Shown: positions 2,681 through 32,372 of the stretch, in pieces
How the letters are laid out: each line of letters begins with the position of its first letter
How positions within the stretch are numbered: the stretch's first letter is position 1
Virus record (IMG/VR): IMGVR_UViG_2703718827_000001
Span: 1-32,372 of that record
Source: a virus
Taxonomy: Duplodnaviria; Heunggongvirae; Uroviricota; Caudoviricetes
DNA: 32,372 nt
Reading direction: 5' to 3' (one strand)
Program-made: the position numbers and the translations under genes
The notes under the pieces: model-generated
Told to the model about the DNA's origin: nothing
Database searches by the model: none
The model's input: only the letters and a program-made list of their open reading frames with translations

Positions 2681-5092
2681 TTATGTGATTCGTTGACTGG
2701 TGTTGAAGTTGGTAGCGAGAGCGTTGGACAATTTGCCCTTACCGCTGGCGACATCTCTGACGGCCATGGCGTAGCCCTGCTGCGCACCTCGCTTAACCGC
2801 GGCCTCAAGCATGGCTTGTTGCTGTGCAGAGTAATCACCGTTTAGATGGATAACCGGGCTGAAATTGAACGCCCCGCCACCACCGCCGATATCCCGGTTA
2901 CTGATGACGCGACCGTTATCGCCGGGGATCATGTACTGGCTACCATTGCTGGCTTTGAAAATCTCAGGCTTGCCGCCCTCGCCCACACGGTACATGGAGC
3001 TGGCAGATACCGGGCCGCCGTTTTCGCGCCCGCCGCCATATGAGATGCTCGCAACGTTCGACAGCAATGACGCTCCAGCAGAGGCGATGGCTGCATAGTT
3101 CGCAAGTTTTTGCGCTGGAGTCAGCGCTGTCGGATCAGCCATGGCCTGCATGATTGCGGTATTCAGGCTGAGGGTAGACTGGGCAATCGCAAACGCTTTA
3201 CTGGCTGCGAACATGACCTGGTACGCCGCGTTACTCTTACCAGCAGAGTCTGCAATTATCGACGCCAGGCTATCAAAGCCCTGGGACGCAGAGCCCAGAA
3301 TAGAAAGAACGGATGCTCTTTGCTGATCTGCCTCAGTCTGCGCTATTTGCATCCGTGCGTTTGACGCCTGCAGTTGGATGGCAGTTTTGGCGTCTTCGTA
3401 AAGCTGGGTATTTTGCTTATCCAGTTCCTGATATTTAGCCAGGGCCTCAAGCTTTTGTGTTTCCTGGAGATTGATTTGCGCCAGCGGATCCACTGATGCC
3501 CCAGTGATAGGGTTGACCGAGGTATTTCCGGCGGCTATCTCCTGTTTGGCATACTTCCGCCCCTGCTCAGCCTCTTTGCGCTTCTGAATAGAGATTGCTG
3601 CCTTTTCGTTTGCCTCACCAAGAGCCCTCGCTTCCGCTAGTTGCTGCTGAGTCGCGGCGCTACCAAGAGACTGCTCCGCACGAAGACCCGCCTCTTGAAT
3701 ACGGCGCTTTTCAATCGACTCTGTGGTCAGGTCTGATTGAGCGCGGAGATTAGCCAGTTTCTGAGCAATGGATTCAGCCTGCGATGCGGAAGTTTTGCCC
3801 TCTTTGTTGCTCTCTTTCCGCGCCTCAGTAACCCGATAGGTTTCTGCATATTCATCCTGAAGAGATTTGATGCGTTTCTGATCGGTGATACCAGCGTCTG
3901 TTGCATCATATTGAGCCTGCAGCCTGGCTCTGGCTTCACCTTCAAGCTTGGCTAGCGCCAGGCGGCGCTCTGAGTTTTTTATCAGCTTCGATGTAGCCGC
4001 ATCGTCTCCGGTCGTTTTAATGTTTATTGGCTTTGTATTAGAGGCCTCTTGAGAGGCTTGGGTCACGGCAGAAATATCCCCAACGAGAGCTGCAGCTTTG
4101 TTGCTTAGCCCTGCAAGCGCCTTGCTTTGAGCCTCCCAACCATCCAGTCCCAGCCAAGACCATGTCCTCGCCCTTCGCTCAAACATCTCTGCTGTGCTAT
4201 TGAGATCGGAAATTTGAGCTGCTGCTGAAGCTGTTTTCCCAGTCAGCCTGTCTATGGCTGTGGTGATGGAGTCAATTACAGCCACCATGGTTCTGCTCGC
4301 GCCCGTAGTCTGGTTAATTGAGTCAACCATTGACAGAAACGAATTGGTAAGAGCAGCATTGGCCTGAGATAAGGTGCGGGGCAATTTTGCGAACTCTGCA
4401 TTCACGATGCTGGTTTGCTTCTGAATTGCATTGAGTGCATCTTGAGCAGAAAGCTTCCCATCCAGCATCAACTGACGCAATTCACCAATACCAATGCCAA
4501 GCCCTGCCGCCATCTGCCTTGCCAACTCAGGCATTTGCTCAAGAATAGAGTTAAATTCTTCTGCTCTGACAACACCGGATGAAATAGACTGCCCGAATTG
4601 GCGCAGCGCATTAGCCATTTCCTCGGCAGATGTTCCTCCAATTCGACCAATTTTTTGAAGGGTGTCGGTAAGCTGCAATATTTGGCCATTAGTGGCACCA
4701 GTGCTCCGCAACGCAGTGCTTAACGTTTCCCACAGCTTGGCTGTATCCTGGAGAGATCCTCCTGTTGTTGAGCTTATATTCATCAGACTTTGCATGGTCT
4801 GAGATGCGACAGAAGCACTACCAGTTAGCCTTTCAACTCGAGCGTTAAGTTGGCTCATATTGTCAGCGGCTACAAGAAATGCCTTCCCCCATTCAACGAC
4901 AATTGAAGCAGCGATCGCGCCAGCTACTCTGCTTATGCTGGTCTGAAGCTCATCAAACTTGCTGGCAGCTTTTGATACTCCGCCATTCATCTTCTCAAGC
5001 CGTTCGTTGACTTTTCGCTGGGCCTCAATAAGGTTGGCTACATCCATCTGTACTTGATAGACGATATTTCCTACCTGTTCCTCACTGGCCAT
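2681..5092 (-). CDS. Tail tape measure protein
   Basis: About 800 aa, Ala/Gln/Leu-rich helical composition typical of tape measure proteins, downstream of the major tail protein. ORF extends to 5107, but the first ATG directly abuts a terminator T-tract; the second ATG (MASEEQ..., 5090..5092) has a GGAG Shine-Dalgarno 5 nt upstream. Confidence 0.85.
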   Translation of the reverse strand: MASEEQVGNIVYQVQMDVANLIEAQRKVNERLEKMNGGVSKAASKFDELQTSISRVAGAIAASIVVEWGKAFLVAADNMSQLNARVERLTGSASVASQTMQSLMNISSTTGGSLQDTAKLWETLSTALRSTGATNGQILQLTDTLQKIGRIGGTSAEEMANALRQFGQSISSGVVRAEEFNSILEQMPELARQMAAGLGIGIGELRQLMLDGKLSAQDALNAIQKQTSIVNAEFAKLPRTLSQANAALTNSFLSMVDSINQTTGASRTMVAVIDSITTAIDRLTGKTASAAAQISDLNSTAEMFERRARTWSWLGLDGWEAQSKALAGLSNKAAALVGDISAVTQASQEASNTKPINIKTTGDDAATSKLIKNSERRLALAKLEGEARARLQAQYDATDAGITDQKRIKSLQDEYAETYRVTEARKESNKEGKTSASQAESIAQKLANLRAQSDLTTESIEKRRIQEAGLRAEQSLGSAATQQQLAEARALGEANEKAAISIQKRKEAEQGRKYAKQEIAAGNTSVNPITGASVDPLAQINLQETQKLEALAKYQELDKQNTQLYEDAKTAIQLQASNARMQIAQTEADQQRASVLSILGSASQGFDSLASIIADSAGKSNAAYQVMFAASKAFAIAQSTLSLNTAIMQAMADPTALTPAQKLANYAAIASAGASLLSNVASISYGGGRENGGPVSASSMYRVGEGGKPEIFKASNGSQYMIPGDNGRVISNRDIGGGGGAFNFSPVIHLNGDYSAQQQAMLEAAVKRGAQQGYAMAVRDVASGKGKLSNALATNFNTSQRIT

Positions 5093-5107
5093 ATTTTCTC
5101 CGGGCAT

Positions 5108-5129
5108 AAAAAAACCCGCCGAAGCGGGT
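5108..5129 (-). terminator. Rho-independent terminator after the lipoprotein moron, immediately upstream of the tape measure start
   Basis: Minus-strand hairpin ACCCGC-TTCG-GCGGGT (6 bp GC-rich stem, tetraloop) followed by TTTTTTT. Confidence 0.7.
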
Positions 5130-5146
5130 TAGGATTCACGGTTTAG

Positions 5147-5533
5147 TCACTTGGTGCAGAACTTATAATCACGCCCACAGAGCGCTATGGATTTTTTTCC
5201 ATCCTCTGACCAGGCCTCTATGGACTGGACATAAACAGCATTCGTCTCTGCATCGATCTGGAACGAAACAAGCCCACCGCTGTAATCTAAAATCTTCCCA
5301 TTTCCCTTAATCGCCTTAAAGGTCGCCGACGCATTATAGGTGTTATCGCTTTTCCGCTCTGAAACCTTGGCCCTCCCCCCTTCAACAGAGAAACATCTTG
5401 CGCTCTTATCCCCACACAGAGCCATCGACATTTCTTTCTTCGCAAGCTGGAAGGCTTCATCTTCTGTGGGAGCTGGTTTACCACAACCAGCCAATAAGAG
5501 CCCTGCAATGGTGACGATTATTAAGCGTTTCAT
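5147..5533 (-). CDS. Lipoprotein (moron); candidate superinfection-exclusion lipoprotein
   Basis: 128 aa; N-terminal signal peptide with lipobox LLAGC; AAGGA Shine-Dalgarno 3-4 nt upstream; followed by its own terminator; region looks AT-richer than flanking tail genes. Confidence 0.7.
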   Translation of the reverse strand: MKRLIIVTIAGLLLAGCGKPAPTEDEAFQLAKKEMSMALCGDKSARCFSVEGGRAKVSERKSDNTYNASATFKAIKGNGKILDYSGGLVSFQIDAETNAVYVQSIEAWSEDGKKSIALCGRDYKFCTK

Positions 5534-5895
5534 ATCCTTATTCCCATTGGTAAAAGTGGAAACATCCTACCCAGGAATAGCACAGGCGCAACGGCAAACG
5601 CTGATTTATTGATCTCAATCGACCGGAAACGGGAAACCTGATCTTTTATCAGGATGTTCGACAATGGGGGTTCCAGGGTAGGTTATTTCATCTTCTCTGC
5701 GACCAAAGCAGTTAAGAAGTAAGCACTCGACATTCTTAGTGTTGATCCACAGGAAGAGGAAAATGAGCGACCAAAACCAAAAACAGAACACCAATCAACC
5801 TTCGCAGCAATCTACCACCCAACCGACGCCGGGGGACAAACCGAGAACCGACTTCTCGCTTGACCGCCGATTTGTTGGGAATTCTGCCGATAAAA

Positions 5896-6468
5896 TCAGA
5901 AAAAAAGATAGCCCACAGTAGTAATAGCTAACGCGCAAATCGGAGTGAGGATTGTTGCGATCCTCGCTCTGTCTAACCTGGTCCTGATTCGCTCATTCAC
6001 TTCACACAACTCTTCAGCTGTATTGTGCAAATTGGCTAACCTGATACGCCTGATTACTGATACCGGGTTGCGGTCAGCAGTAAACCCCCTACTTGCCAGT
6101 TCTTCGTAATGCTCATGGTCCAGCGATTTATAAAGTTTAGTATAGAGATCTGCCGGCGCTGAGTTAAGCAAAGCGCGAACCTGAACTGACAGGACGCCAG
6201 TAACCAAATAAATAGCGCACGCTGCCCAATAGAGCATGAACACACCAATACCTAGCGACATAAAAAAAGGTTGGTTATTTTGCGTCAGCAGTAAAAACGA
6301 TGAACCAATTCCGACAATAAGAATCCCAAGCAATTTGTATCCGTTTTCTCTGTTAATTGTATTCGATTGCTCGATCTCTTTGATGCACTCCTCGCCCTGT
6401 CTCTCGAGAAATTCAACAAGCTTATCATCGGCACTTAGAAAATAATCGTAAGGGAGATTTGTCATCAT
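5896..6468 (-). CDS. Multi-pass membrane protein (moron), unknown function
   Basis: 190 aa; two adjacent hydrophobic helices (LLGILIVGIGSSFLLLT and FFMSLGIGVFMLYWAACAIYLVTGV) and a C-terminal hydrophobic segment; weak RBS; AT-rich. Confidence 0.55.
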   Translation of the reverse strand: MMTNLPYDYFLSADDKLVEFLERQGEECIKEIEQSNTINRENGYKLLGILIVGIGSSFLLLTQNNQPFFMSLGIGVFMLYWAACAIYLVTGVLSVQVRALLNSAPADLYTKLYKSLDHEHYEELASRGFTADRNPVSVIRRIRLANLHNTAEELCEVNERIRTRLDRARIATILTPICALAITTVGYLFF

Positions 6469-6525
6469 AAACCGCTTAACTTTATGGACTTAGATAAATT
6501 TTAACCGATTGTGGGCTTGCGTATA

Positions 6526-6549
6526 AAGGAAAAGCCCACCTGAGTGGGC
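6526..6549 (-). terminator. Rho-independent terminator downstream of the KilA-N gene
   Basis: Minus-strand hairpin GCCCAC-TCAG-GTGGGC followed by TTTTCCTTTAT, about 10 nt after the KilA-N stop. Confidence 0.55.
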
Positions 6550-6559
6550 CTTGCCACCT

Positions 6560-7123
6560 TCACGCGATGCCTGGCAGGTACATCTGAACTTCATCGGCGA
6601 CGCGCTCCCTTGCTGCGTGCAACAGCTGCTTACGACCACCGACACCCCACCGGGCCATCTGGCTGGCGCATTGGCTGATCTGCCTGGTTTCAGTGTTGAT
6701 GATGTGGTCGATTTTGTTCAGGCGAGACATGGCACTGATACCGAGGCGCACTACGGTTCTGAACACCTCATACACTTCAATCTCAAATTCCGGCTTAATC
6801 CATGCAGCATAACGGATCGCCAACAGTTCAACACCCCAAACGCCTGGTTCATCCCCACCTTTAATAACATTAAGTGGTTGAATTTGTTCCAGAGTGCTTT
6901 TTTGCACTTTGGCTTTTAGTGCTTTTATGAAGCGCTTAACTTGAGCACTACGCAAAAACTGACTTGGGCGCTGCTGTTCTGTTGCCTCTCCGTTTGCCAC
7001 TGCGGCTGCATGAAGATCATTAAGGTTATAGCGCCCTTCGTCATCAACGCGAACGGAAACGCCGTTTACTGATACGGTTGGATATTTCATTGCGATTTGC
7101 CTATAGAAAGCAGAGCCTGTCAC
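6560..7123 (-). CDS. KilA-N domain protein (moron inside the tail operon)
   Basis: 187 aa; N-terminal region (VSVNGVSVRVDDEGRYNLNDLHAAA ... VIKGGDEPGVWGVELLAIRYAAWIKPEFE) matches the KilA-N/APSES-type DNA-binding domain pattern; possible alternative start at Met12. Confidence 0.7.
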   Translation of the reverse strand: MTGSAFYRQIAMKYPTVSVNGVSVRVDDEGRYNLNDLHAAAVANGEATEQQRPSQFLRSAQVKRFIKALKAKVQKSTLEQIQPLNVIKGGDEPGVWGVELLAIRYAAWIKPEFEIEVYEVFRTVVRLGISAMSRLNKIDHIINTETRQISQCASQMARWGVGGRKQLLHAARERVADEVQMYLPGIA

Positions 7124-7197
7124 ACAGAGAAGCCGCCTCCTAGAGAGGTCGCCACCTATAACGGCAACTCTCAGGCTCGCTTTCTGTAGGCTCTAGG

Positions 7198-7203
7198 ATT
7201 ATA
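7198..7203 (-). promoter_or_regulatory. Candidate sigma70 -10 element (TATAAT) upstream of the KilA-N gene
   Basis: Perfect TATAAT on the minus strand with a preceding TG; no convincing -35 hexamer found. Confidence 0.3.
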
Positions 7204-7242
7204 CAATGCGCGTGTGAAGCGCGGTTGATTTACTGCGGGTAC

Positions 7243-7269
7243 AAAAAAGCCCCGGACAATGCCGAGGCT
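7243..7269 (-). terminator. Candidate intrinsic terminator between the chaperone-position gene and the KilA-N moron
   Basis: Minus-strand 8 bp stem with one mismatch (AGCCTCGG/CCGGGGCT) followed by TTTTTTGT. Confidence 0.45.
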
Positions 7270-7285
7270 TGATTATTTGGGTGGG

Positions 7286-7975
7286 CTACTTCTGCTTAGC
7301 CTGCCGCCGTTTGCGTCGCGCAAAGTAGTCATCTGCCGCACTATCGTACTCTTCCCTGGTGTACCCCTTCTGTTCAGGGTATTTAGCGACCAGCATCATC
7401 TGAAACTCTGTCATCGTCAGCTGTCCAGCTTCTTCTTTGCTGATGTTGAAGTGGTTGCGCGCAGCAATGATGTAATCAGATGCCCTGAATTCATTGGTTG
7501 GTTCGTTCGATTCGTGGCGCTGTAGCTTGCGTAACTTGGCTTGGCCGATAATGCCGTGCATCATCAGGCTTTGGGCGATGATGACCATTTCCTGGGGCGG
7601 CATAATACCCCGCCGCCACATAAAGCCGCGCTTCCGGCTTTTACCTGGCTTCATCCAGCCGATCAGATCTCCCACTTCATCCTCGCAGCATGCGGACAAA
7701 ACCGTATGCGCAGCCATGATAGCCTTACGGCTCAGTATTCCGCTCTGTATGTAGCGAATGACACATTCTGGCAGGCGGTCATATTCTGATTGGATGTAGG
7801 ATTTGGACGCCTTCTGGATGAGAGTAGTCACCTCATCATTACAGAGATCGTAAAACGTCTGAACAATTTCCACTGGCTCGCCAATGCTGGACATCGCGAA
7901 TAGTGACGGACGAAAAAAATAGTCCTTATCACCGACACTAATAAGGCATTCTCCAAACTCTTTAACTGGTGTCAT
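7286..7975 (-). CDS. Hypothetical tail-module protein in the tail assembly chaperone position
   Basis: 229 aa; lies directly downstream of the major tail protein, where G/GT-type chaperones normally sit; basic C-terminus; no slippery-site frameshift seen. Confidence 0.45.
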   Translation of the reverse strand: MTPVKEFGECLISVGDKDYFFRPSLFAMSSIGEPVEIVQTFYDLCNDEVTTLIQKASKSYIQSEYDRLPECVIRYIQSGILSRKAIMAAHTVLSACCEDEVGDLIGWMKPGKSRKRGFMWRRGIMPPQEMVIIAQSLMMHGIIGQAKLRKLQRHESNEPTNEFRASDYIIAARNHFNISKEEAGQLTMTEFQMMLVAKYPEQKGYTREEYDSAADDYFARRKRRQAKQK

Positions 7976-14217: not shown

Positions 14218-14571
14218 ATGAAAAAAATTGCAATGGCTATCGGGGTTGGTGCGCTGATAATTTCTTTCGACTCAATGGCTGATTACTACGGTGGTAATGA
14301 TATTGCCAAATGGAGCGACTCCAGACTTAAAGCCAAGGCTGGAACCGCTGATAACATGGACTATGTTAACGTTGCAACTTTACGAGGCCTTGTTATTGGT
14401 GTTCATGATGCTTTCGAAGGGTCTTCAATCTGCTCGCCTCAGGGAGCAACAAATGGGCAAATAGTCGATACGGTTACTTTATACGTATCAAACCATCCGG
14501 AGAAGCGTACCGATAATGCATCTCTGTTGGCTTATGAGGCATTATCCAACGCCTACCCGTGTAAAAAATAG
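14218..14571 (+). CDS. Secreted small protein (moron) on the opposite strand inside the head module
   Basis: 117 aa; N-terminal signal peptide (MKKIAMAIGVGALIISFDSMA); strong AAAGGAG Shine-Dalgarno; two Cys residues; AT-rich; its stop abuts the stop of the convergent minus-strand gene with no gap. Confidence 0.6.
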   Translation: MKKIAMAIGVGALIISFDSMADYYGGNDIAKWSDSRLKAKAGTADNMDYVNVATLRGLVIGVHDAFEGSSICSPQGATNGQIVDTVTLYVSNHPEKRTDNASLLAYEALSNAYPCKK

Positions 14572-19672: not shown

Positions 19673-20254
19673 ATGAATCCTGTAATTTTTATGAAAATCT
19701 TCGGTGAGGTGGATATCTCAAAGTTTTTTATTTCCATTGACCAAAATGAAGATGAACTTGGCTCGGTTTTAAGAGTTCATCTTTTGTCTGAGCGGCTACT
19801 TGATGCATGGATAGCGGCCCATATAAATAAAGAAGATTTGTTTCAAAATTCACCGGGCGAGAAAATAAAGTTCAATCCGAGCTATGGGATGAAACTTGGA
19901 CTCGCAAAGAAGTTAGGAATGCACGCTGAGTTATGTTCTTGCCTGCAAACTATTAACAAAATAAGAAATAACTTTGCTCATCGCTATGATTGCGAACCCC
20001 TAACAGATAAAGACATGCAAGCGATGGAAAATGCACTCAAAGGCGCTCCTCTACCTGCGAAAGTCAGAGCCGTCAGTGAAATTGATTTCAAGATTATTGA
20101 TATCACTGGTAAGGAAATTAAAAGCTACCATTTCAATGATGAAGAAACGCCAAATCGAATCCGCCTGCTTATTATTTTCGCCAGCATAATGGCAAGAATC
20201 ATCACTGTGGTAGTGGATAAACTTAAGACAATTGACCCCTTAGTCTTCAAATAA
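19673..20254 (+). CDS. HEPN-motif protein (candidate abortive-infection / RNase-type defence moron)
   Basis: 193 aa; R-x4-H motif (IRNNFAHRYD, R98 to H103) in a predicted helical context, matching the HEPN Rx4-6H signature; AAGGA RBS; AT-rich; transcribed opposite to the flanking late genes. Confidence 0.55.
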   Translation: MNPVIFMKIFGEVDISKFFISIDQNEDELGSVLRVHLLSERLLDAWIAAHINKEDLFQNSPGEKIKFNPSYGMKLGLAKKLGMHAELCSCLQTINKIRNNFAHRYDCEPLTDKDMQAMENALKGAPLPAKVRAVSEIDFKIIDITGKEIKSYHFNDEETPNRIRLLIIFASIMARIITVVVDKLKTIDPLVFK

Positions 20255-20319: not shown

Positions 20320-20547
20320 TCAGGGATGAGGTTCTATTCTGGCGCAGTTCGCCTGCACCGATTTGTTGTGCGCCAGCACGTCTTTCTTCGTCTGGCGATC
20401 CATCACTTCGATGTCGTGCTCAGTGAGGCGGATGACGTTTACCCAGTCACAGCCGGTGTCGATGACCTCAATCTTTGCGGGTCCAGTTTGCGCGCAGCTC
20501 GCGATCAACATCGTCATCAGGCATATGGCTAACTGTCTGCTGAACAT
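20320..20547 (-). CDS. o-spanin (Rz1-like outer-membrane lipoprotein)
   Basis: 75 aa; signal peptide with lipobox LIASC; starts inside the 3' end of the i-spanin gene in another frame (overlapped spanin architecture). Confidence 0.6.
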   Translation of the reverse strand: MFSRQLAICLMTMLIASCAQTGPAKIEVIDTGCDWVNVIRLTEHDIEVMDRQTKKDVLAHNKSVQANCARIEPHP

Positions 20548-20740
20548 TGCTGGCCTCCTTGGTTACTTCAACGCGGCGTTCTGCAGCTGCTTTGGTGGCT
20601 GCTGCGTTATCGTCGGTTCGCTGCTTATCGGCTTTGTCTTCTGCCCTCTCCCGTCCACGCATGCTGCCCAGGCCAAAAGCGCCCAGCACCACCAGCACAA
20701 CAGTGACGATAAACGCCAGGATGGCTTTCAGTTTGGTCAT
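20468..20740 (-). CDS. i-spanin (Rz-like)
   Basis: 90 aa; N-terminal transmembrane segment (ILAFIVTVVLVVLGAFGLG) followed by a charged periplasmic region; directly downstream of the endolysin. Confidence 0.6.
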   Translation of the reverse strand: MTKLKAILAFIVTVVLVVLGAFGLGSMRGRERAEDKADKQRTDDNAAATKAAAERRVEVTKEASNVQQTVSHMPDDDVDRELRANWTRKD

Positions 20741-21279
20741 AGGCTCACGCGCTCCCGGATCCAGCCATACACGAATGACTCGTTTTGCTGGCGCTGCTCT
20801 GCCAGTTCGAGATAACGCTGCCCTTGGCTGCAGTTAAGCGAGCGAAGCAATACGGTCTCCCCTTCACTACCACGCTTCGCCAGGTAAGACTTCAGCGCGC
20901 TGATGCTGCGCGGGCCAATCTGGCCGTCGGCGATCAGGTCGGGATAGAACTGCTGCTGGTTGTTGAATACGTTCAGCCAGCGCTGGAACCACTTCACCTG
21001 TACCGATGGCCCCATGTTCACGCCGGTGTCGCAGAGTTCAGCGGCAATTGCAGGGGATAAAGACGCCACCTGGTCGAAGCGTGGGCCATACCAGTAATCA
21101 GCCTCGAGGATTTCCAGAGCCTGCTCGCGGGTCAGGTCTCGCATGTCACCGCTATAACCATGGGCGCGGGCCGTTGCCTGAGTAATCCCCCAGTTCGTCG
21201 GGCCGCCTTTATCGTTCGGGTGATTAACGTAACCTCCCTCTTTTCCGAGGATGGCATTGAAGATGTCGTCTTTGGTCAT
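20737..21279 (-). CDS. Endolysin, glycoside hydrolase family 108-type with C-terminal peptidoglycan-binding region
   Basis: Start at MTKDD (ATG overlapping the upstream holin stop as ATGA); motif ILGKEGGYVNHPNDKGGPTNWGIT is characteristic of GH108 lysozymes. Confidence 0.75.
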   Translation of the reverse strand: MTKDDIFNAILGKEGGYVNHPNDKGGPTNWGITQATARAHGYSGDMRDLTREQALEILEADYWYGPRFDQVASLSPAIAAELCDTGVNMGPSVQVKWFQRWLNVFNNQQQFYPDLIADGQIGPRSISALKSYLAKRGSEGETVLLRSLNCSQGQRYLELAEQRQQNESFVYGWIRERVSL

Positions 21280-25283: not shown

Positions 25284-25721
25284 ATGAATAATGGGGTGTT
25301 TACTACCGTCATTACTGGTGTTTCAGTGTTTGTGTTGGGTCAGATATTTGTAAAATCCATGCTTGATCCTTACATTTCATTCAAGGAACATTTGGGGATG
25401 GTTTCGGCCATTCTCCTGCGTGAGCAAAATAAAATCCTTAGCATCAATGCGAAAAGCGAAGTAATAAACGAAATCAAACAGGCGTCAGCTTTGCTGTTGT
25501 CAAAATCTAATGCCATACCCTTGTATGGAATGTTGGCTACTTTACGTCTCCTTCCTCGATACAAAGATGTCCTTAAGGCCTCGTGGAATCTGAATCTTAT
25601 TGCGTCTATTTTAGAAGAAGGAAGAAACACCACCCCCAAAGAAACCTATACAACTATTTCTAATTCTCTCAATGCGGTAGGCAGTAAGTTAGGGGTGGTT
25701 GTTACATACAGACCATCTTAG
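25284..25721 (+). CDS. Membrane-anchored protein (moron), unknown function
   Basis: 145 aa; single N-terminal transmembrane helix (VFTTVITGVSVFVLGQIFV) then a predicted helical soluble domain; plus strand, AT-rich. Confidence 0.55.
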   Translation: MNNGVFTTVITGVSVFVLGQIFVKSMLDPYISFKEHLGMVSAILLREQNKILSINAKSEVINEIKQASALLLSKSNAIPLYGMLATLRLLPRYKDVLKASWNLNLIASILEEGRNTTPKETYTTISNSLNAVGSKLGVVVTYRPS

Positions 25722-29785: not shown

Positions 29786-30011
29786 TCTCCTTACGTTTCA
29801 GTTCTTCCAGGATGGCGCGCATCTTCTCTGCCACAATCGGGTTAACCGAGCGGATGAAGCGGTCGCGGGTTATGTTTTTATGTACAGAGGTATGGTAATA
29901 GCGTGGATTTTTTGCCATTATTCCTCCTGCAATGAGTGCACACGATTTGCATCTGAAGGCCAGTTCTGTTCGCGCAGACTGGCTTTCGCCATTTTTGAAA
30001 CTTCCCATCAC
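29772..30011 (-). CDS. Small hypothetical early protein (79 aa)
   Basis: ORF coupled by overlaps to the cII-like gene upstream and the initiator downstream; contains CKSC. Confidence 0.4.
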   Translation of the reverse strand: MMGSFKNGESQSARTELAFRCKSCALIAGGIMAKNPRYYHTSVHKNITRDRFIRSVNPIVAEKMRAILEELKRKESGRG

Positions 30012-30550
30012 ATAACCCCCAACATCGAAGTGACCATAGCCATCAGCGGCGCGGTCAGATCCGGGTCGACACGGAACATCTCTACAATCCCCTCACTGAG
30101 TTCCTTGAGCTTCTGGTGACGCGGGGCGTTCATCGCAACGGCCACTTTCGCCTCGCTCGTTTCTTTCTCAAGTCGAGCTAAGCGGGACATAAAACTGTCC
30201 TCTGGAAGAAGTCGATGGCGATACTCCAGCGGCAAAACGGCCATGATTGCGGGCGTCAGCTGGCGCACGTTCTCGCGGTACTGCTCAGAGTCGAAACGGT
30301 TATCCAGAAAGCGAAAAAGTTTCTGGCGCGCCCTGCTGATGTCTTCCGGAAAGCTGATGGCGGTCCCGCCCTGCTCCCGGTATTCGTTGATGATCAGCGC
30401 CGAAACGACGTCCTGATTGTCCAGCGCCGACGACCATGCCCTGACCGCATCGCGGATCTTTTCGTGGTCTGGCGCCGCCTTAGGTTGAGCGCGGTTTATC
30501 ATCGCTCCCGGGTGTATTCCGGTATTGTGTTGATACGCAAGTGAATGCAT
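30008..30550 (-). CDS. YdaT-like / CII-type regulator
   Basis: Start at the internal Met (MHSLAYQ...); segment EYREQGG...LTPAIMAVLPLEYRHRL resembles Rac YdaT (EYLRQGG...LIPAILAILPRELRHRL); located directly downstream of the cro-like gene. Confidence 0.55.
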   Translation of the reverse strand: MHSLAYQHNTGIHPGAMINRAQPKAAPDHEKIRDAVRAWSSALDNQDVVSALIINEYREQGGTAISFPEDISRARQKLFRFLDNRFDSEQYRENVRQLTPAIMAVLPLEYRHRLLPEDSFMSRLARLEKETSEAKVAVAMNAPRHQKLKELSEGIVEMFRVDPDLTAPLMAMVTSMLGVM

Positions 30551-30578
30551 TGCTTTCCCTTCGTGGTTAGGGCCGCCG

Positions 30579-30806
30579 TTAAGCGGCTTTTGGTTTACTG
30601 ATTTCAAGGATCTGGTTCTCGGTAAACTGACCACCAGATGCAGCTGCGATTTTGGACGCATAACCTGTTTCGCCGGTGTAATCGGTACGCGGCAGGCAAC
30701 CGCTGTTAATCCACTTGTAGATAGCGCGGGGAGTGCGCCCGCAAGCCTTCGCCACCACCGGTACACGGATTTGCTTGATGATGTCGCCAAGGTTCTTAGG
30801 TTGCAT
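30579..30806 (-). CDS. cro: Cro-like repressor (YdaS-type HTH)
   Basis: 75 aa; HTH (VAKACGRTPRAIYKWINSG); GAGGG Shine-Dalgarno; divergent from the cI-like gene across an operator-containing spacer. Confidence 0.7.
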   Translation of the reverse strand: MQPKNLGDIIKQIRVPVVAKACGRTPRAIYKWINSGCLPRTDYTGETGYASKIAAASGGQFTENQILEISKPKAA

Positions 30807-30895
30807 TTGTTAACCCTCAAATTGAACTGTAAGTACATATTATGTCGGAACTGATAGTTCACGCAAGTGATATTATGATTGAACCTATGGTTCAA
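30807..30895. promoter_or_regulatory. Divergent immunity control region: PR-like promoter and three operator-type palindromes
   Basis: Palindromes GAACTGTAAGTAC (about 30824..30836), GAACTGATAGTTC (about 30848..30860, perfect) and TTGAACCTATGGTTCAA (about 30879..30895). Minus-strand promoter TTGCGT-N16-CATAAT with the perfect palindrome in its spacer. Confidence 0.6.
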
Positions 30896-31597
30896 GAAGA
30901 AAAAGCGCGTAAAGAGTTTTCCCAACGGCTAGCGCTGGCCTGTGATAAAGCTGGTTTACCTGCTCATGGACGTCAGGCTGAAATAGCCAAACGAATGAAG
31001 CTCACGCCTAAAGCGGTAAGCAAGTGGTTCAATGGGGAGGCTATTCCAAGACGTGGGAAGCTGCAGGAATTGGCGGCTATAATTGGCACATCCTCGTCTT
31101 TCCTGTTGGGGGACAGCGCTGCTGATGGCATATCTGAAGGGCATATGGCGATGAGGGATGATTCTTTCCGTGTAGACGTTTTTGACATTCAGGCAAGTGC
31201 TGGGCAGGGAGTTCTCGTGCGAGATGAATTCATTGAAACCATCAGATCCATTGAGTATTCAACCGAAGAGGCTCGCGCCGTATTTGGTGGGCGCCCAGCT
31301 GACCACATTAAAATGATTGCCGTGAATGGCGATTCGATGTCTGGCACGTTCGAGCCTCGAGACCAGATCTTCGTCGACGTCAGCATCGACTGCTTTGACG
31401 GTGACGGCATATATATTTTCGTTCTGGACAATGATCTCTACATTAAGCGCCTTCAAAAGCAGCACAAAAAATTAGCTGTGATTTCAGACAATAAAAAATA
31501 TGAAACCTGGTACATCGAAGATGGTGATTTTTCTTCTCTCCGTATATGCGCGAAAGTGCTGGTAAGCCAGTCAAGGGCATACAGATTTCATAGCTGA
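30842..31597 (+). CDS. cI: CI-like phage repressor with C-terminal S24 (LexA-type) autopeptidase domain
   Basis: N-terminal HTH (RQAEIAKRMKLTPKAVSKWFNG); C-terminal S24 signature with Ser (VNGDSMSGTF) and Lys (LYIKRL). True start may be 30875 or 30887, because the first ATG overlaps the PR-like -10 element. Confidence 0.85.
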   Translation: MSELIVHASDIMIEPMVQEEKARKEFSQRLALACDKAGLPAHGRQAEIAKRMKLTPKAVSKWFNGEAIPRRGKLQELAAIIGTSSSFLLGDSAADGISEGHMAMRDDSFRVDVFDIQASAGQGVLVRDEFIETIRSIEYSTEEARAVFGGRPADHIKMIAVNGDSMSGTFEPRDQIFVDVSIDCFDGDGIYIFVLDNDLYIKRLQKQHKKLAVISDNKKYETWYIEDGDFSSLRICAKVLVSQSRAYRFHS

Positions 31598-31608
31598 GGA
31601 AGTTAAGC

Positions 31609-32196
31609 ATGGAAGCAAATAAGGTTACAGAGCTGAGTGATGGCAGCGTCTTGTACGAGCTTGGTGATCACCTCATTACCTGCAAATTAAGCCACGATAA
31701 ACGTTGGCAGCTAGGTGCTTTCAAACGTGATGAAAGTAATATCAGAGATGACACTCTGGCGGTTTTGAAGAATGAAAAATTCATGTTTATGGTTAAGCTC
31801 GGCGGGCAGCTTTCTCCTAAGCCTCAATGCATAGCTGTTAACGGGCGATTTTTATTTTCTGTCCATACCGGCAAAGACAACAACATGGCTGCAGCCATAG
31901 TCATGGATAACACCGGGAAAGAGTTATTCAAGATAGAAACTTCCACTCACCTCATCAGTTCGGCCATATCTGAATTTGGCTGCTACATCGCCCTATCGTT
32001 TGCCGGTAGCAAAAATAAAGATGATTTTTACGCGCACCGGCTTGAGGTCATAAACATTGATACCGCAGAGGTGTTGATGTCCGTTATCAAAACAGACTTC
32101 CTTCGATACGCTGAACTTTCAGTTGTTGAGCCAGACGGCGGACTTTTCGCAACTTTCAATGGTCGCACAAGACTAGTAGATGTGACGAACCTCTAA
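31609..32196 (+). CDS. Hypothetical protein co-transcribed with cI (rex-position cargo gene)
   Basis: 195 aa ORF starting 12 nt after the repressor stop on the same strand; no recognisable motif; AT-rich; lies between operator-bearing promoters. Confidence 0.6.
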   Translation: MEANKVTELSDGSVLYELGDHLITCKLSHDKRWQLGAFKRDESNIRDDTLAVLKNEKFMFMVKLGGQLSPKPQCIAVNGRFLFSVHTGKDNNMAAAIVMDNTGKELFKIETSTHLISSAISEFGCYIALSFAGSKNKDDFYAHRLEVINIDTAEVLMSVIKTDFLRYAELSVVEPDGGLFATFNGRTRLVDVTNL

Positions 32197-32325
32197 AATA
32201 TCCAATCCGCACCCTCCTCCAGGCATTCCCCACAAAAAATTCTAAAAATTTTTTCTCTTTAAAGTTCATATACATACTTGCATATGAACTTTCCATTCAC
32301 TTTAAATGTACTTTTGGTACTTTAC

Positions 32326-32353
32326 TTGAATGAACTATTGGTACATTATCAAC
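32326..32353 (+). promoter_or_regulatory. Candidate PL/OL-like promoter-operator
   Basis: TTGAAT-N16-TATCAA with operator-like GAACTATTGGTAC in the spacer, mirroring the PR-like promoter; nearby GTACTTTTGGTAC repeat. Confidence 0.35.
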
Positions 32354-32372
32354 CCATCGAAACGAAACATCG

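What the first reader, a model, noticed from the sequence alone, without database searches (positions are those of the whole stretch)
31609..32196. Uncharacterised 195-aa gene in the rex position of the immunity operon
The ORF begins 12 nt after the stop of the S24 CI-like repressor on the same strand, so it is most likely transcribed with the repressor in the lysogen. It is bracketed by operator-bearing promoters (PR-like to the left, candidate PL/OL-like at 32326..32353). In lambda this exact position holds rexA-rexB, and in other lambdoid phages it holds other exclusion or defence cargo. The protein has no transmembrane segment and no motif I can recognise, and the gene looks AT-richer than the backbone. 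A single-gene, lysogen-expressed exclusion or defence function is the most plausible role and could be new.
Basis: partly seen in the sequence, partly recalled or inferred. Interest (0 to 1): 0.8.

Follow-up and report, generated by a model that had tools for sequence, protein, structure and literature searches.

The report
Half-propeller cargo gene behind prophage repressor
The 195-codon gene just after the prophage repressor is a real, conserved, mobile "add-on" gene encoding a small, soluble, incomplete beta-propeller protein of a family nobody has described; it sits where lambda keeps rexAB, but whether it defends against other phages is still untested.

Summary
ORF 31609-32196 (+, 195 aa) starts 11 nt after the stop of an S24 CI-like repressor. 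Its Shine-Dalgarno overlaps that stop and no hairpin intervenes. The pair lies between two triplets of one 15-bp operator (OR 30823-30894, OL 32285-32345).

The gene is real: 27 intact alleles, dN/dS 0.06-0.09. It is an insertion: two relatives with homologous cI and OL have 60-92 nt where the window has about 655 nt, and a third holds a 39-aa membrane peptide gene there.

No Pfam, PHROG, NCBIfam, PADLOC or PDB sequence match. AlphaFold (pLDDT 90.6) gives about four WD40-like blades, apparently an open arc, with no catalytic domain, signal peptide or membrane segment.

All copies examined at 86% identity or more follow this same cI. All ten distant relatives (28-52%) lie in the other classic moron slot, between tail chaperone and tape measure, ahead of a strong terminator.

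Verdict: a portable prophage cargo gene, probably expressed with cI, whose product most likely works by binding a protein. Superinfection exclusion or defence is the leading guess (about 0.35-0.4) but has no direct support. A new protein family in a known kind of slot; moderate interest.

The parts
31609..32196 (+). ORF195: 195-aa (21.7 kDa, pI 5.7) soluble protein, predicted four-blade WD40-like partial beta-propeller
31596..31602 (+). Shine-Dalgarno GAGGAAG for ORF195, overlapping the cI stop codon, 6 nt before the ATG
   Evidence: Read from the sequence. No hairpin lies in 31570-31625 (z -0.15). The same junction is kept in 33 of 33 IMG/VR copies.
30842..31597 (+). CI-like repressor (HTH_3 + Peptidase_S24); the true start is probably 30875 or 30887
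   Evidence: Pfam and PHROG hits. RefSeq annotates 240 aa. The 251-aa ORF overlaps the OR operators. A promoter-like site at 30851-30879 would give a leaderless ATG at 30887.
30579..30806 (-). Cro-like 75-aa HTH protein, divergent from cI
   Evidence: PHROG 35 at E 2e-12. Annotated Cro in related Klebsiella phages.
30823..30894 (.). OR: three 15-bp operators (30823-30837, 30847-30861, 30880-30894)
   Evidence: Pattern search: 8 hits against 2.2 expected. Identical sites occur in Klebsiella phage Kp4856-1.
31601..32258 (.). Segment of about 655 bp present in the window but replaced by 92 nt (E. coli ET846) or 60 nt (Citrobacter phage Omnitron) between homologous cI and OL
   Evidence: blastn junctions: window 31400-31600/31604 and 32259-32363 match both relatives, with nothing matching in between (alignment).
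32285..32345 (.). OL: three 15-bp operators (32285-32299, 32307-32321, 32331-32345)
   Evidence: Pattern search. Conserved in ET846, Omnitron and Kp4856-1.
32321..32349 (+). Candidate PL (TTTACT, 17 nt, CATTAT) reading away from ORF195 into the early-left genes
   Evidence: Read from the sequence. Relatives carry TTTACA-17-CATTAT/CATCAT. Downstream genes in related loci are kil, gam and recT on the same strand. Inferred, not shown.

Best explanation
ORF195 is a horizontally mobile prophage cargo gene (a moron) inserted between the repressor gene and OL/PL, the slot that holds rexAB in lambda and bstA in BTP1. It has no promoter or terminator of its own in the window. It is most likely transcribed with cI from the maintenance promoter in the lysogen and translated from its own Shine-Dalgarno. 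Its product is a soluble cytoplasmic 21.7-kDa protein built of about four WD40-like blades, which appear to form an open arc. It may close into a ring by self-association or with a partner, and it has no catalytic or membrane domain. It therefore most likely acts stoichiometrically, by binding and blocking or sequestering another protein. The most likely target is a component of an incoming phage, or a host factor such phages need, which would give superinfection exclusion or defence. Shown: the gene is real, it is under selection, it is an insertion, the fold, and the two-slot distribution. Inferred: co-transcription, oligomerisation, binding as the mode of action, and the anti-phage role (my estimate 0.35-0.4).
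Confidence: 0.5

Rival explanations
1. Lysogenic-conversion factor aimed at the host, not at phages: the half-propeller binds a host protein and changes host physiology (stress tolerance, envelope, virulence, growth) to the benefit of the lysogen.
For: The cargo evidence is the same. Morons have many non-defence roles (PMC3594210). There is no defence-family match. A protein-binding fold without an effector fits a modulator.
Against: Both slots it uses are best known for exclusion or abortive-infection cargo. The family is confined to phage and prophage contexts in every locus examined. No chromosomal homolog family turned up in an exhaustive search: 8 proteins at E up to 1e-10 among 1.84 billion.
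Confidence: 0.25
2. Accessory regulator of the phage's own lysis-lysogeny switch, for example one that modulates RecA-dependent cI cleavage, CII stability or an antirepressor, and is kept next to cI for co-regulation.
For: It is tightly linked to one cI/cro allele in every close copy and shows translational-coupling-like spacing.
Against: Relatives with the same operators or a homologous cI lack it. Every distant homolog sits in the tail-gene moron slot, far from regulatory genes. It has no DNA-binding or protease-related domain.
Confidence: 0.12
3. Tail-assembly or tape-measure accessory protein that was secondarily captured by the immunity region.
For: Ten of ten distant homologs lie between tail chaperone and tape measure, in the late-operon orientation and tightly packed.
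Against: The window's own DUF6246-type tail module lacks it and holds other cassettes there. E. coli 1218KP, with a 99.9% identical cI-ORF195, has an unrelated lambda-type G/T/TMP tail. Terminators bound the tail-slot cassettes. GC dips at the gene in Klebsiella and Vibrio loci. No PHROG structural family matches.
Confidence: 0.07
4. Spurious or decaying ORF with no function.
For: No annotation beyond 'hypothetical protein'.
Against: dN/dS is 0.06-0.09. There are 27 alleles without a single stop or frameshift. Homologs reach 28% identity across Enterobacterales and Vibrio. The fold prediction is confident.
Confidence: 0.01

Closest known systems
Lambda RexA/RexB (abortive infection genes downstream of cI)
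   Same: Same genomic slot and strand logic: after cI, before OL/PL, presumably read from the repressor promoters in the lysogen (PMC8585504).
   Different: One gene rather than two. No membrane channel component (no TM segment). No sequence similarity. A beta-propeller fold.
BstA of Salmonella prophage BTP1
   Same: A single gene directly downstream of the prophage repressor, highly expressed in lysogens, and found only in prophages (PMC8585504).
   Different: No similarity to BstA (no PADLOC or Pfam hit). No self-immunity (aba-like) element can be recognised.
HK97 gp15 moron (superinfection exclusion)
   Same: Distant ORF195 relatives occupy the very slot where gp15 lies, between tail chaperone and tape measure. 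They end with a terminator as a moron does (PMC3594210).
   Different: gp15 is a small inner-membrane YebO-like protein. ORF195 is a soluble 195-aa propeller fragment. The window copy sits behind cI, not in the tail operon.
WD40/PQQ-like beta-propeller repeat proteins (Pfam Beta_propeller clan), including fragment propellers that assemble from two chains (PDB 6r60, Ika4 6g6q)
   Different: Only about four blades in 195 aa. No Pfam WD40 or PQQ hit for ORF195 itself, and only sub-threshold WD40-type hits in relatives. Not fused to any other domain.
Tab (Pseudomonas prophage protein that blocks virion assembly of invading phages)
   Same: A possible functional analogue: a prophage-encoded protein that defends by interfering with another phage's protein machinery (PMC10884400, abstract).
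   Different: No sequence relation was tested or known. This is an analogy of mechanism only.

Membership tests
Lambda RexAB-type system | Located between cI and OL/PL on the cI strand | tested here: met
Lambda RexAB-type system | Two components: a cytoplasmic sensor (RexA) plus a polytopic membrane protein (RexB) | tested here: not met
   A single ORF fills the slot. No TM segment; maximum KD 1.36.
Lambda RexAB-type system | Sequence homology to RexA or RexB | tested here: not met
   No Pfam, PADLOC or NCBIfam hit.
BstA | Sequence homology to BstA | tested here: not met
   No significant Pfam family and no PADLOC model hit at E up to 10.
BstA | Cognate anti-BstA (aba) DNA element at the gene's 5' end | not testable with these tools
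   Needs genetics.
Moron (Hendrix/Juhala sense) | Present or absent between otherwise homologous flanking genes | tested here: met
   ET846 and Omnitron have 92 or 60 nt instead of about 655 nt. Kp4856-1 holds a different small gene there.
Moron (Hendrix/Juhala sense) | Nucleotide composition differs from the neighbours | tested here: met
   GC 0.444 against 0.526. GC dips at the homologs in L001 and L016. cI is also AT-rich, so the contrast is with the backbone rather than with cI.
Moron (Hendrix/Juhala sense) | Own promoter and terminator | tested here: not met
   The window copy has no promoter-like or terminator-like site of its own. Tail-slot relatives do end with strong terminators.
Moron (Hendrix/Juhala sense) | Expressed from the repressed prophage | not testable with these tools
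   Inferred from the 11-nt coupling to cI. Needs RNA-seq.
Beta-propeller (WD40-like) fold | Repeated four-stranded antiparallel blades | tested here: met
Beta-propeller (WD40-like) fold | Closed ring formed by one chain | tested here: inconclusive
Beta-propeller (WD40-like) fold | Pfam WD40 or PQQ repeat signature above the gathering score | tested here: not met
Known anti-phage defence systems (PADLOC-DB 2.0) | HMM match to any component | tested here: not met
   0 families at E up to 10.
Tail-module core gene | Present in all phages that share the tail module | tested here: not met
   Absent from the window's own DUF6246/TMP module. Present in a prophage with a lambda-type tail.

The most novel reading that the evidence does not exclude
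A stand-alone half-propeller is a new class of single-protein superinfection-exclusion or defence factor. It neutralises incoming phages by direct binding, without any enzymatic or membrane effector. Its variable N-terminal third sets specificity, and it moves between the two canonical moron slots of siphophages (behind cI, and between tail chaperone and tape measure).
Probability: 0.3. Interest if true: 0.7.

Novelty: new variant of a known kind. Interest (0 to 1): 0.45.

Why it matters
The cI-to-PL slot is among the most highly expressed places in a lysogen. It has already yielded RexAB and BstA. Here the slot holds an undescribed protein family with a confident but unusual fold, a four-blade propeller fragment. 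That family also appears in the classic HK97-gp15 moron slot. This gives a compact (588 bp), easily cloned candidate for a new prophage-encoded function. It also offers natural controls: relatives with the same immunity region but an empty or differently filled slot. If the gene is anti-phage, it would add a binder-only mechanism to the defence repertoire, and it would show that cargo moves between the two slots. If it is not, it is still a clean example of moron mobility.

Tried and rejected
Family libraries gave only noise for ORF195. Pfam returned MotA_activ at E 0.019, below its cut-off. PHROGs returned E 0.032. PADLOC and NCBIfam returned nothing.

A PDB sequence-profile search found nothing better than E 0.55.

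The first AF2 run, using only close homologs, was poor (pLDDT 58). It was superseded by the run with the diverse alignment.

The afdb50 fold library was unavailable.

Fold searches gave only generic propellers and no specific functional neighbour.

I tested whether ORF195 tracks the DUF6246 tail type. It does not. E. coli genomes with the window's tape measure gene are not those with ORF195, and 1218KP has a lambda-type tail.

I looked for a paralog in the window's own tail slot. There is none.

I looked for a conserved partner gene. The small exported proteins that follow the tail-slot homologs belong to different families, and one is present in the window's slot without the propeller gene. 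So the exported protein appears to be a property of the slot, not an obligate partner.

I looked for a terminator after ORF195. Only an A/U-only hairpin of about -1 kcal/mol is present.

The N-terminal membrane anchor of the Vibrio homolog may be a start-codon artefact, because an internal ATG with a good Shine-Dalgarno aligns with the family's N-terminus.

Literature and supplement searches for the protein accessions found nothing.

Full report
**1. The observation**

The window has an ATG-initiated ORF at 31609-32196 on the + strand, encoding 195 aa. The ORF immediately upstream (30842-31597, +) is a CI-type repressor. It hits HTH_3 and Peptidase_S24 (E 7e-18) in Pfam and PHROG 4 'transcriptional repressor' (E 3e-50). 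A 75-aa Cro-like gene runs divergently at 30579-30806.

The repressor's TGA is at 31595-31597 and the ORF195 ATG at 31609, so 11 nt intervene. A GAGGAAG Shine-Dalgarno at 31596-31602 overlaps the stop codon. Neither the terminator scan nor RNA folding finds a structure between the two genes.

The pattern TGWACN5GTWCA, allowing one mismatch, occurs 8 times in the window against 2.2 expected; none of 100 shuffles reached 8. Six of the eight hits form two triplets:
- 30823, 30847 and 30880, between cro and cI (OR);
- 32285, 32307 and 32331, just after ORF195 (OL).

A PL-like TTTACT-17-CATTAT at 32321-32349 overlaps the last operator. In related loci the genes beyond it are kil, gam, recT and similar genes on the same strand.

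The gene therefore sits exactly where lambda has rexA-rexB. It is AT-richer than the window as a whole (GC 0.444 against 0.526; GC3 0.48 against 0.64-0.72 in structural and replication genes). cI itself is also AT-rich, at 0.471. The highest 19-residue hydropathy is 1.36, so there is no membrane segment.

**2. It is a real gene under selection**

The exact protein is on record in 164 blocks of the assembly collection. Close homologs (84-95% identity) occur in E. coli, Citrobacter and Enterobacter.

Across all loci fetched I recovered 41 full-length ungapped copies. These comprise 27 distinct alleles, none with a stop or frameshift. Pairwise dN/dS is 0.06-0.09 for pairs with dS of 0.3-0.79; cI gives 0.01-0.07 in the same loci.

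Amino-acid variation is concentrated in the first 67 residues: 37 of 67 variable positions against 37 of 128 elsewhere (Fisher p 6e-4).

**3. It is an insertion into the immunity region**

E. coli ET846 and Citrobacter phage Omnitron have a homologous cI (76-79% nt identity over its 3' end) and a homologous OL/PL (79-81%). Between the two they carry only 92 and 60 nt, where the window has about 655 nt (31601/31605 to 32258).

Klebsiella phage Kp4856-1 has the same operator sequences. After its cI it holds a 39-codon ORF for a single-pass membrane peptide, preceded by the same GAGGAAG motif and followed by a strong terminator.

So within this one immunity group the slot is empty, or filled with a tiny membrane peptide gene, or filled with ORF195.

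**4. The family uses two slots**

In every close copy examined, ORF195 follows the same cI (97-100% aa identity) and cro at the same spacing. This holds for 33 of 33 IMG/VR contigs and for the nine assembly loci. The replication, nin and early-left modules around it differ, so the immunity cassette travels as a unit through mosaic lambdoid prophages. One carrier, E. coli 1218KP (99.9% identical over cI-ORF195), has a lambda-type gpG/T/TMP tail and Cor. The window itself has a DUF6246-type tail.

An exhaustive profile search of 1.84 billion representative proteins found only eight family members at E up to 1e-10. The distant relatives share 28-52% identity with ORF195. They come from:
- Klebsiella phage Kp4856-1;
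- Providencia-type loci;
- Vibrio casei;
- several metagenomic contigs.

[quoted passage not shown] Each is followed within 0-50 nt by a small exported, lipoprotein or membrane protein. Those follower proteins belong to different families.

A strong intrinsic terminator lies just before the tape measure gene in all four of these loci that were scanned. GC dips at the gene in both the Klebsiella and the Vibrio locus.

This is the slot of HK97 gene 15, the first moron described and a superinfection exclusion gene (PMC3594210). The region downstream of cI is likewise described as a mosaic hotspot that holds rexAB and bstA and shares the repressor promoter (PMC8585504).

The window's own tail slot (5113-7270) has no ORF195 paralog. 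It carries three terminator-bounded cassettes instead: a KilA-N protein, a 190-aa membrane protein and a 128-aa lipoprotein.

Kp4856-1 and the window's phage share operators and tail type but keep the propeller gene in different slots. This is the clearest sign that it is portable cargo.

**5. What the protein is**

No curated family matches ORF195 in Pfam, PHROGs, NCBIfam or PADLOC, and no solved structure is related by sequence.

At the sequence-profile level one blade matches the repeat of WD40/PQQ-like proteins:
- residues about 95-138, 'AAIVMDNTGKELFKIETSTHLISSAISEFGCYIALSFAGSKNKD';
- E 4e-6 to 4e-5;
- hhalign probability 81%.

A recurring motif, (D/N/E/F)G followed by hydrophobic residues, appears at residues 11-18, 78-85, 122-130 and 175-183 and marks four blades.

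The best matches are arcs of seven-bladed rings, and no four-bladed (hemopexin-type) propeller appears among the listed top hits. I therefore read the model as an open arc of about four blades that would need self-association or a partner to close. This is an inference. I could not inspect coordinates or run a multimer prediction.

There is no catalytic, DNA-binding, signal or membrane element. The N-terminal hydrophobic extension of the Vibrio homolog may be a start-codon artefact.

**6. How it most likely works**

- **Shown:** the gene is real and under purifying selection. It is an insertion into the rex slot. Its product is a soluble partial propeller. The family occurs only in phage cargo slots.
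- **Inferred:** it is co-transcribed with cI from PRM (and PRE), because the junction leaves no room for other signals and is conserved. The protein acts by binding another protein, because that is what small propellers without other domains do. The target is a component of a competing phage or a host factor such phages need, because both slots are known for exclusion and abortive-infection cargo.

I put about 0.75 on 'lysogen-expressed cargo encoding a protein binder' and 0.35-0.4 on an anti-phage role specifically.

Rivals:
- a host-directed conversion factor (0.25);
- a regulator of the phage's own switch (0.12), weakened by relatives that manage without it and by the tail-slot homologs;
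- a tail-assembly accessory (0.07), weakened by its absence from the window's own tail module, its presence with a lambda-type tail, and the bounding terminators;
- a spurious ORF (about 0.01).

**7. Comparison with what is known, and novelty**

ORF195 shares position with RexAB and BstA, but neither sequence nor architecture. Its relatives share position with HK97 gp15, but not protein type. At the fold level it belongs to the beta-propeller world. It does not reach any Pfam repeat threshold and has too few blades for a conventional single-chain ring.

The protein accessions appear in no searched paper, nor in the DefensePredictor supplements. A search for propeller-type prophage defence proteins found nothing comparable.

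I classify it as a new variant of a known kind. The kind is lysogen-expressed moron cargo in the cI-PL slot. The variant is a new protein family with an unusual fragment-propeller fold.

Interest is moderate. A hypothetical gene behind cI is not surprising. The two-slot distribution, the confident fold and the natural empty-slot controls make it a clean, cheap experimental target.

Noticed in passing
window 14218-14571 (+): A 117-aa ORF on the strand opposite to the head genes hits Pfam Rap1a, a type VI secretion immunity protein family, at E 1.5e-16 against a cut-off of 27.7 bits. It may be an orphan T6SS-immunity moron carried by the prophage.
   Followed up: no
window 5113-7270 (-): The window's own slot between tail chaperone (7286-7975) and tape measure (2681-5107) holds three cassettes, each ending in a terminator-like hairpin. 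They are a KilA-N protein (6560-7123), a 190-aa membrane protein of PHROG 11870 (5896-6468), and a 128-aa lipoprotein with an LLAGC lipobox of PHROG 20460 (5147-5533). None matches PADLOC. They are candidates for exclusion functions.
   Followed up: partly
L065 about 4051-4170 (Klebsiella phage Kp4856-1, after cI): In a phage with identical OR operators, the rex slot holds a 39-codon ORF for a single-pass membrane peptide (MSDLIIPILITLLIIGLVGIVLRLDKIFFKRRDERDDFE). It has the same GAGGAAG ribosome site and a strong terminator.
   Followed up: partly
window 30842-30894: The 251-aa repressor ORF overlaps two of the three OR operators. RefSeq relatives are annotated at 240 aa. A promoter-like site at 30851-30879 would place the transcript start at the ATG at 30887, suggesting a leaderless cI message as in lambda.
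   Followed up: no
window 31609-31809 (ORF195 residues 1-67): Among 27 alleles the N-terminal third is significantly more variable than the rest (37 of 67 against 37 of 128 positions, Fisher p 6e-4). It may be a specificity region.
   Followed up: partly
L016 8001-8114 (Vibrio casei prophage homolog): The called gene has a 38-residue N-terminal extension with a hydrophobic segment followed by KPRKK, which would tether the propeller to the inner face of the membrane. An internal ATG with a good Shine-Dalgarno aligns with the family's N-terminus, so the anchor may be an annotation artefact.
   Followed up: partly
window 2681-5107 versus 30800-32372: Strong mosaicism. The tape measure gene is 100% identical to one in E. 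coli GN25, which has no match to the cI-ORF195 query. The cI-ORF195 region is 99.9% identical to E. coli 1218KP, which has a lambda-type tail.
   Followed up: yes
window 30008-30550 (-) and 30400-30590: The gene in the cII position is a 180-aa YdaT-domain protein (Pfam E 2.7e-26). The DNA at the cro/cII junction is 91-97% identical to phi80 and Enterobacter phage CobraSix, while the rest of the immunity region is not.
   Followed up: no
window 25284-25721 (+), 19673-20254 (+), 20363-20815 (+): Three ORFs lie on the strand opposite to their neighbours and have no Pfam or PADLOC match. The first is conserved at the same place in several related prophages (L003-L006). They may be further cargo genes.
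   Followed up: no
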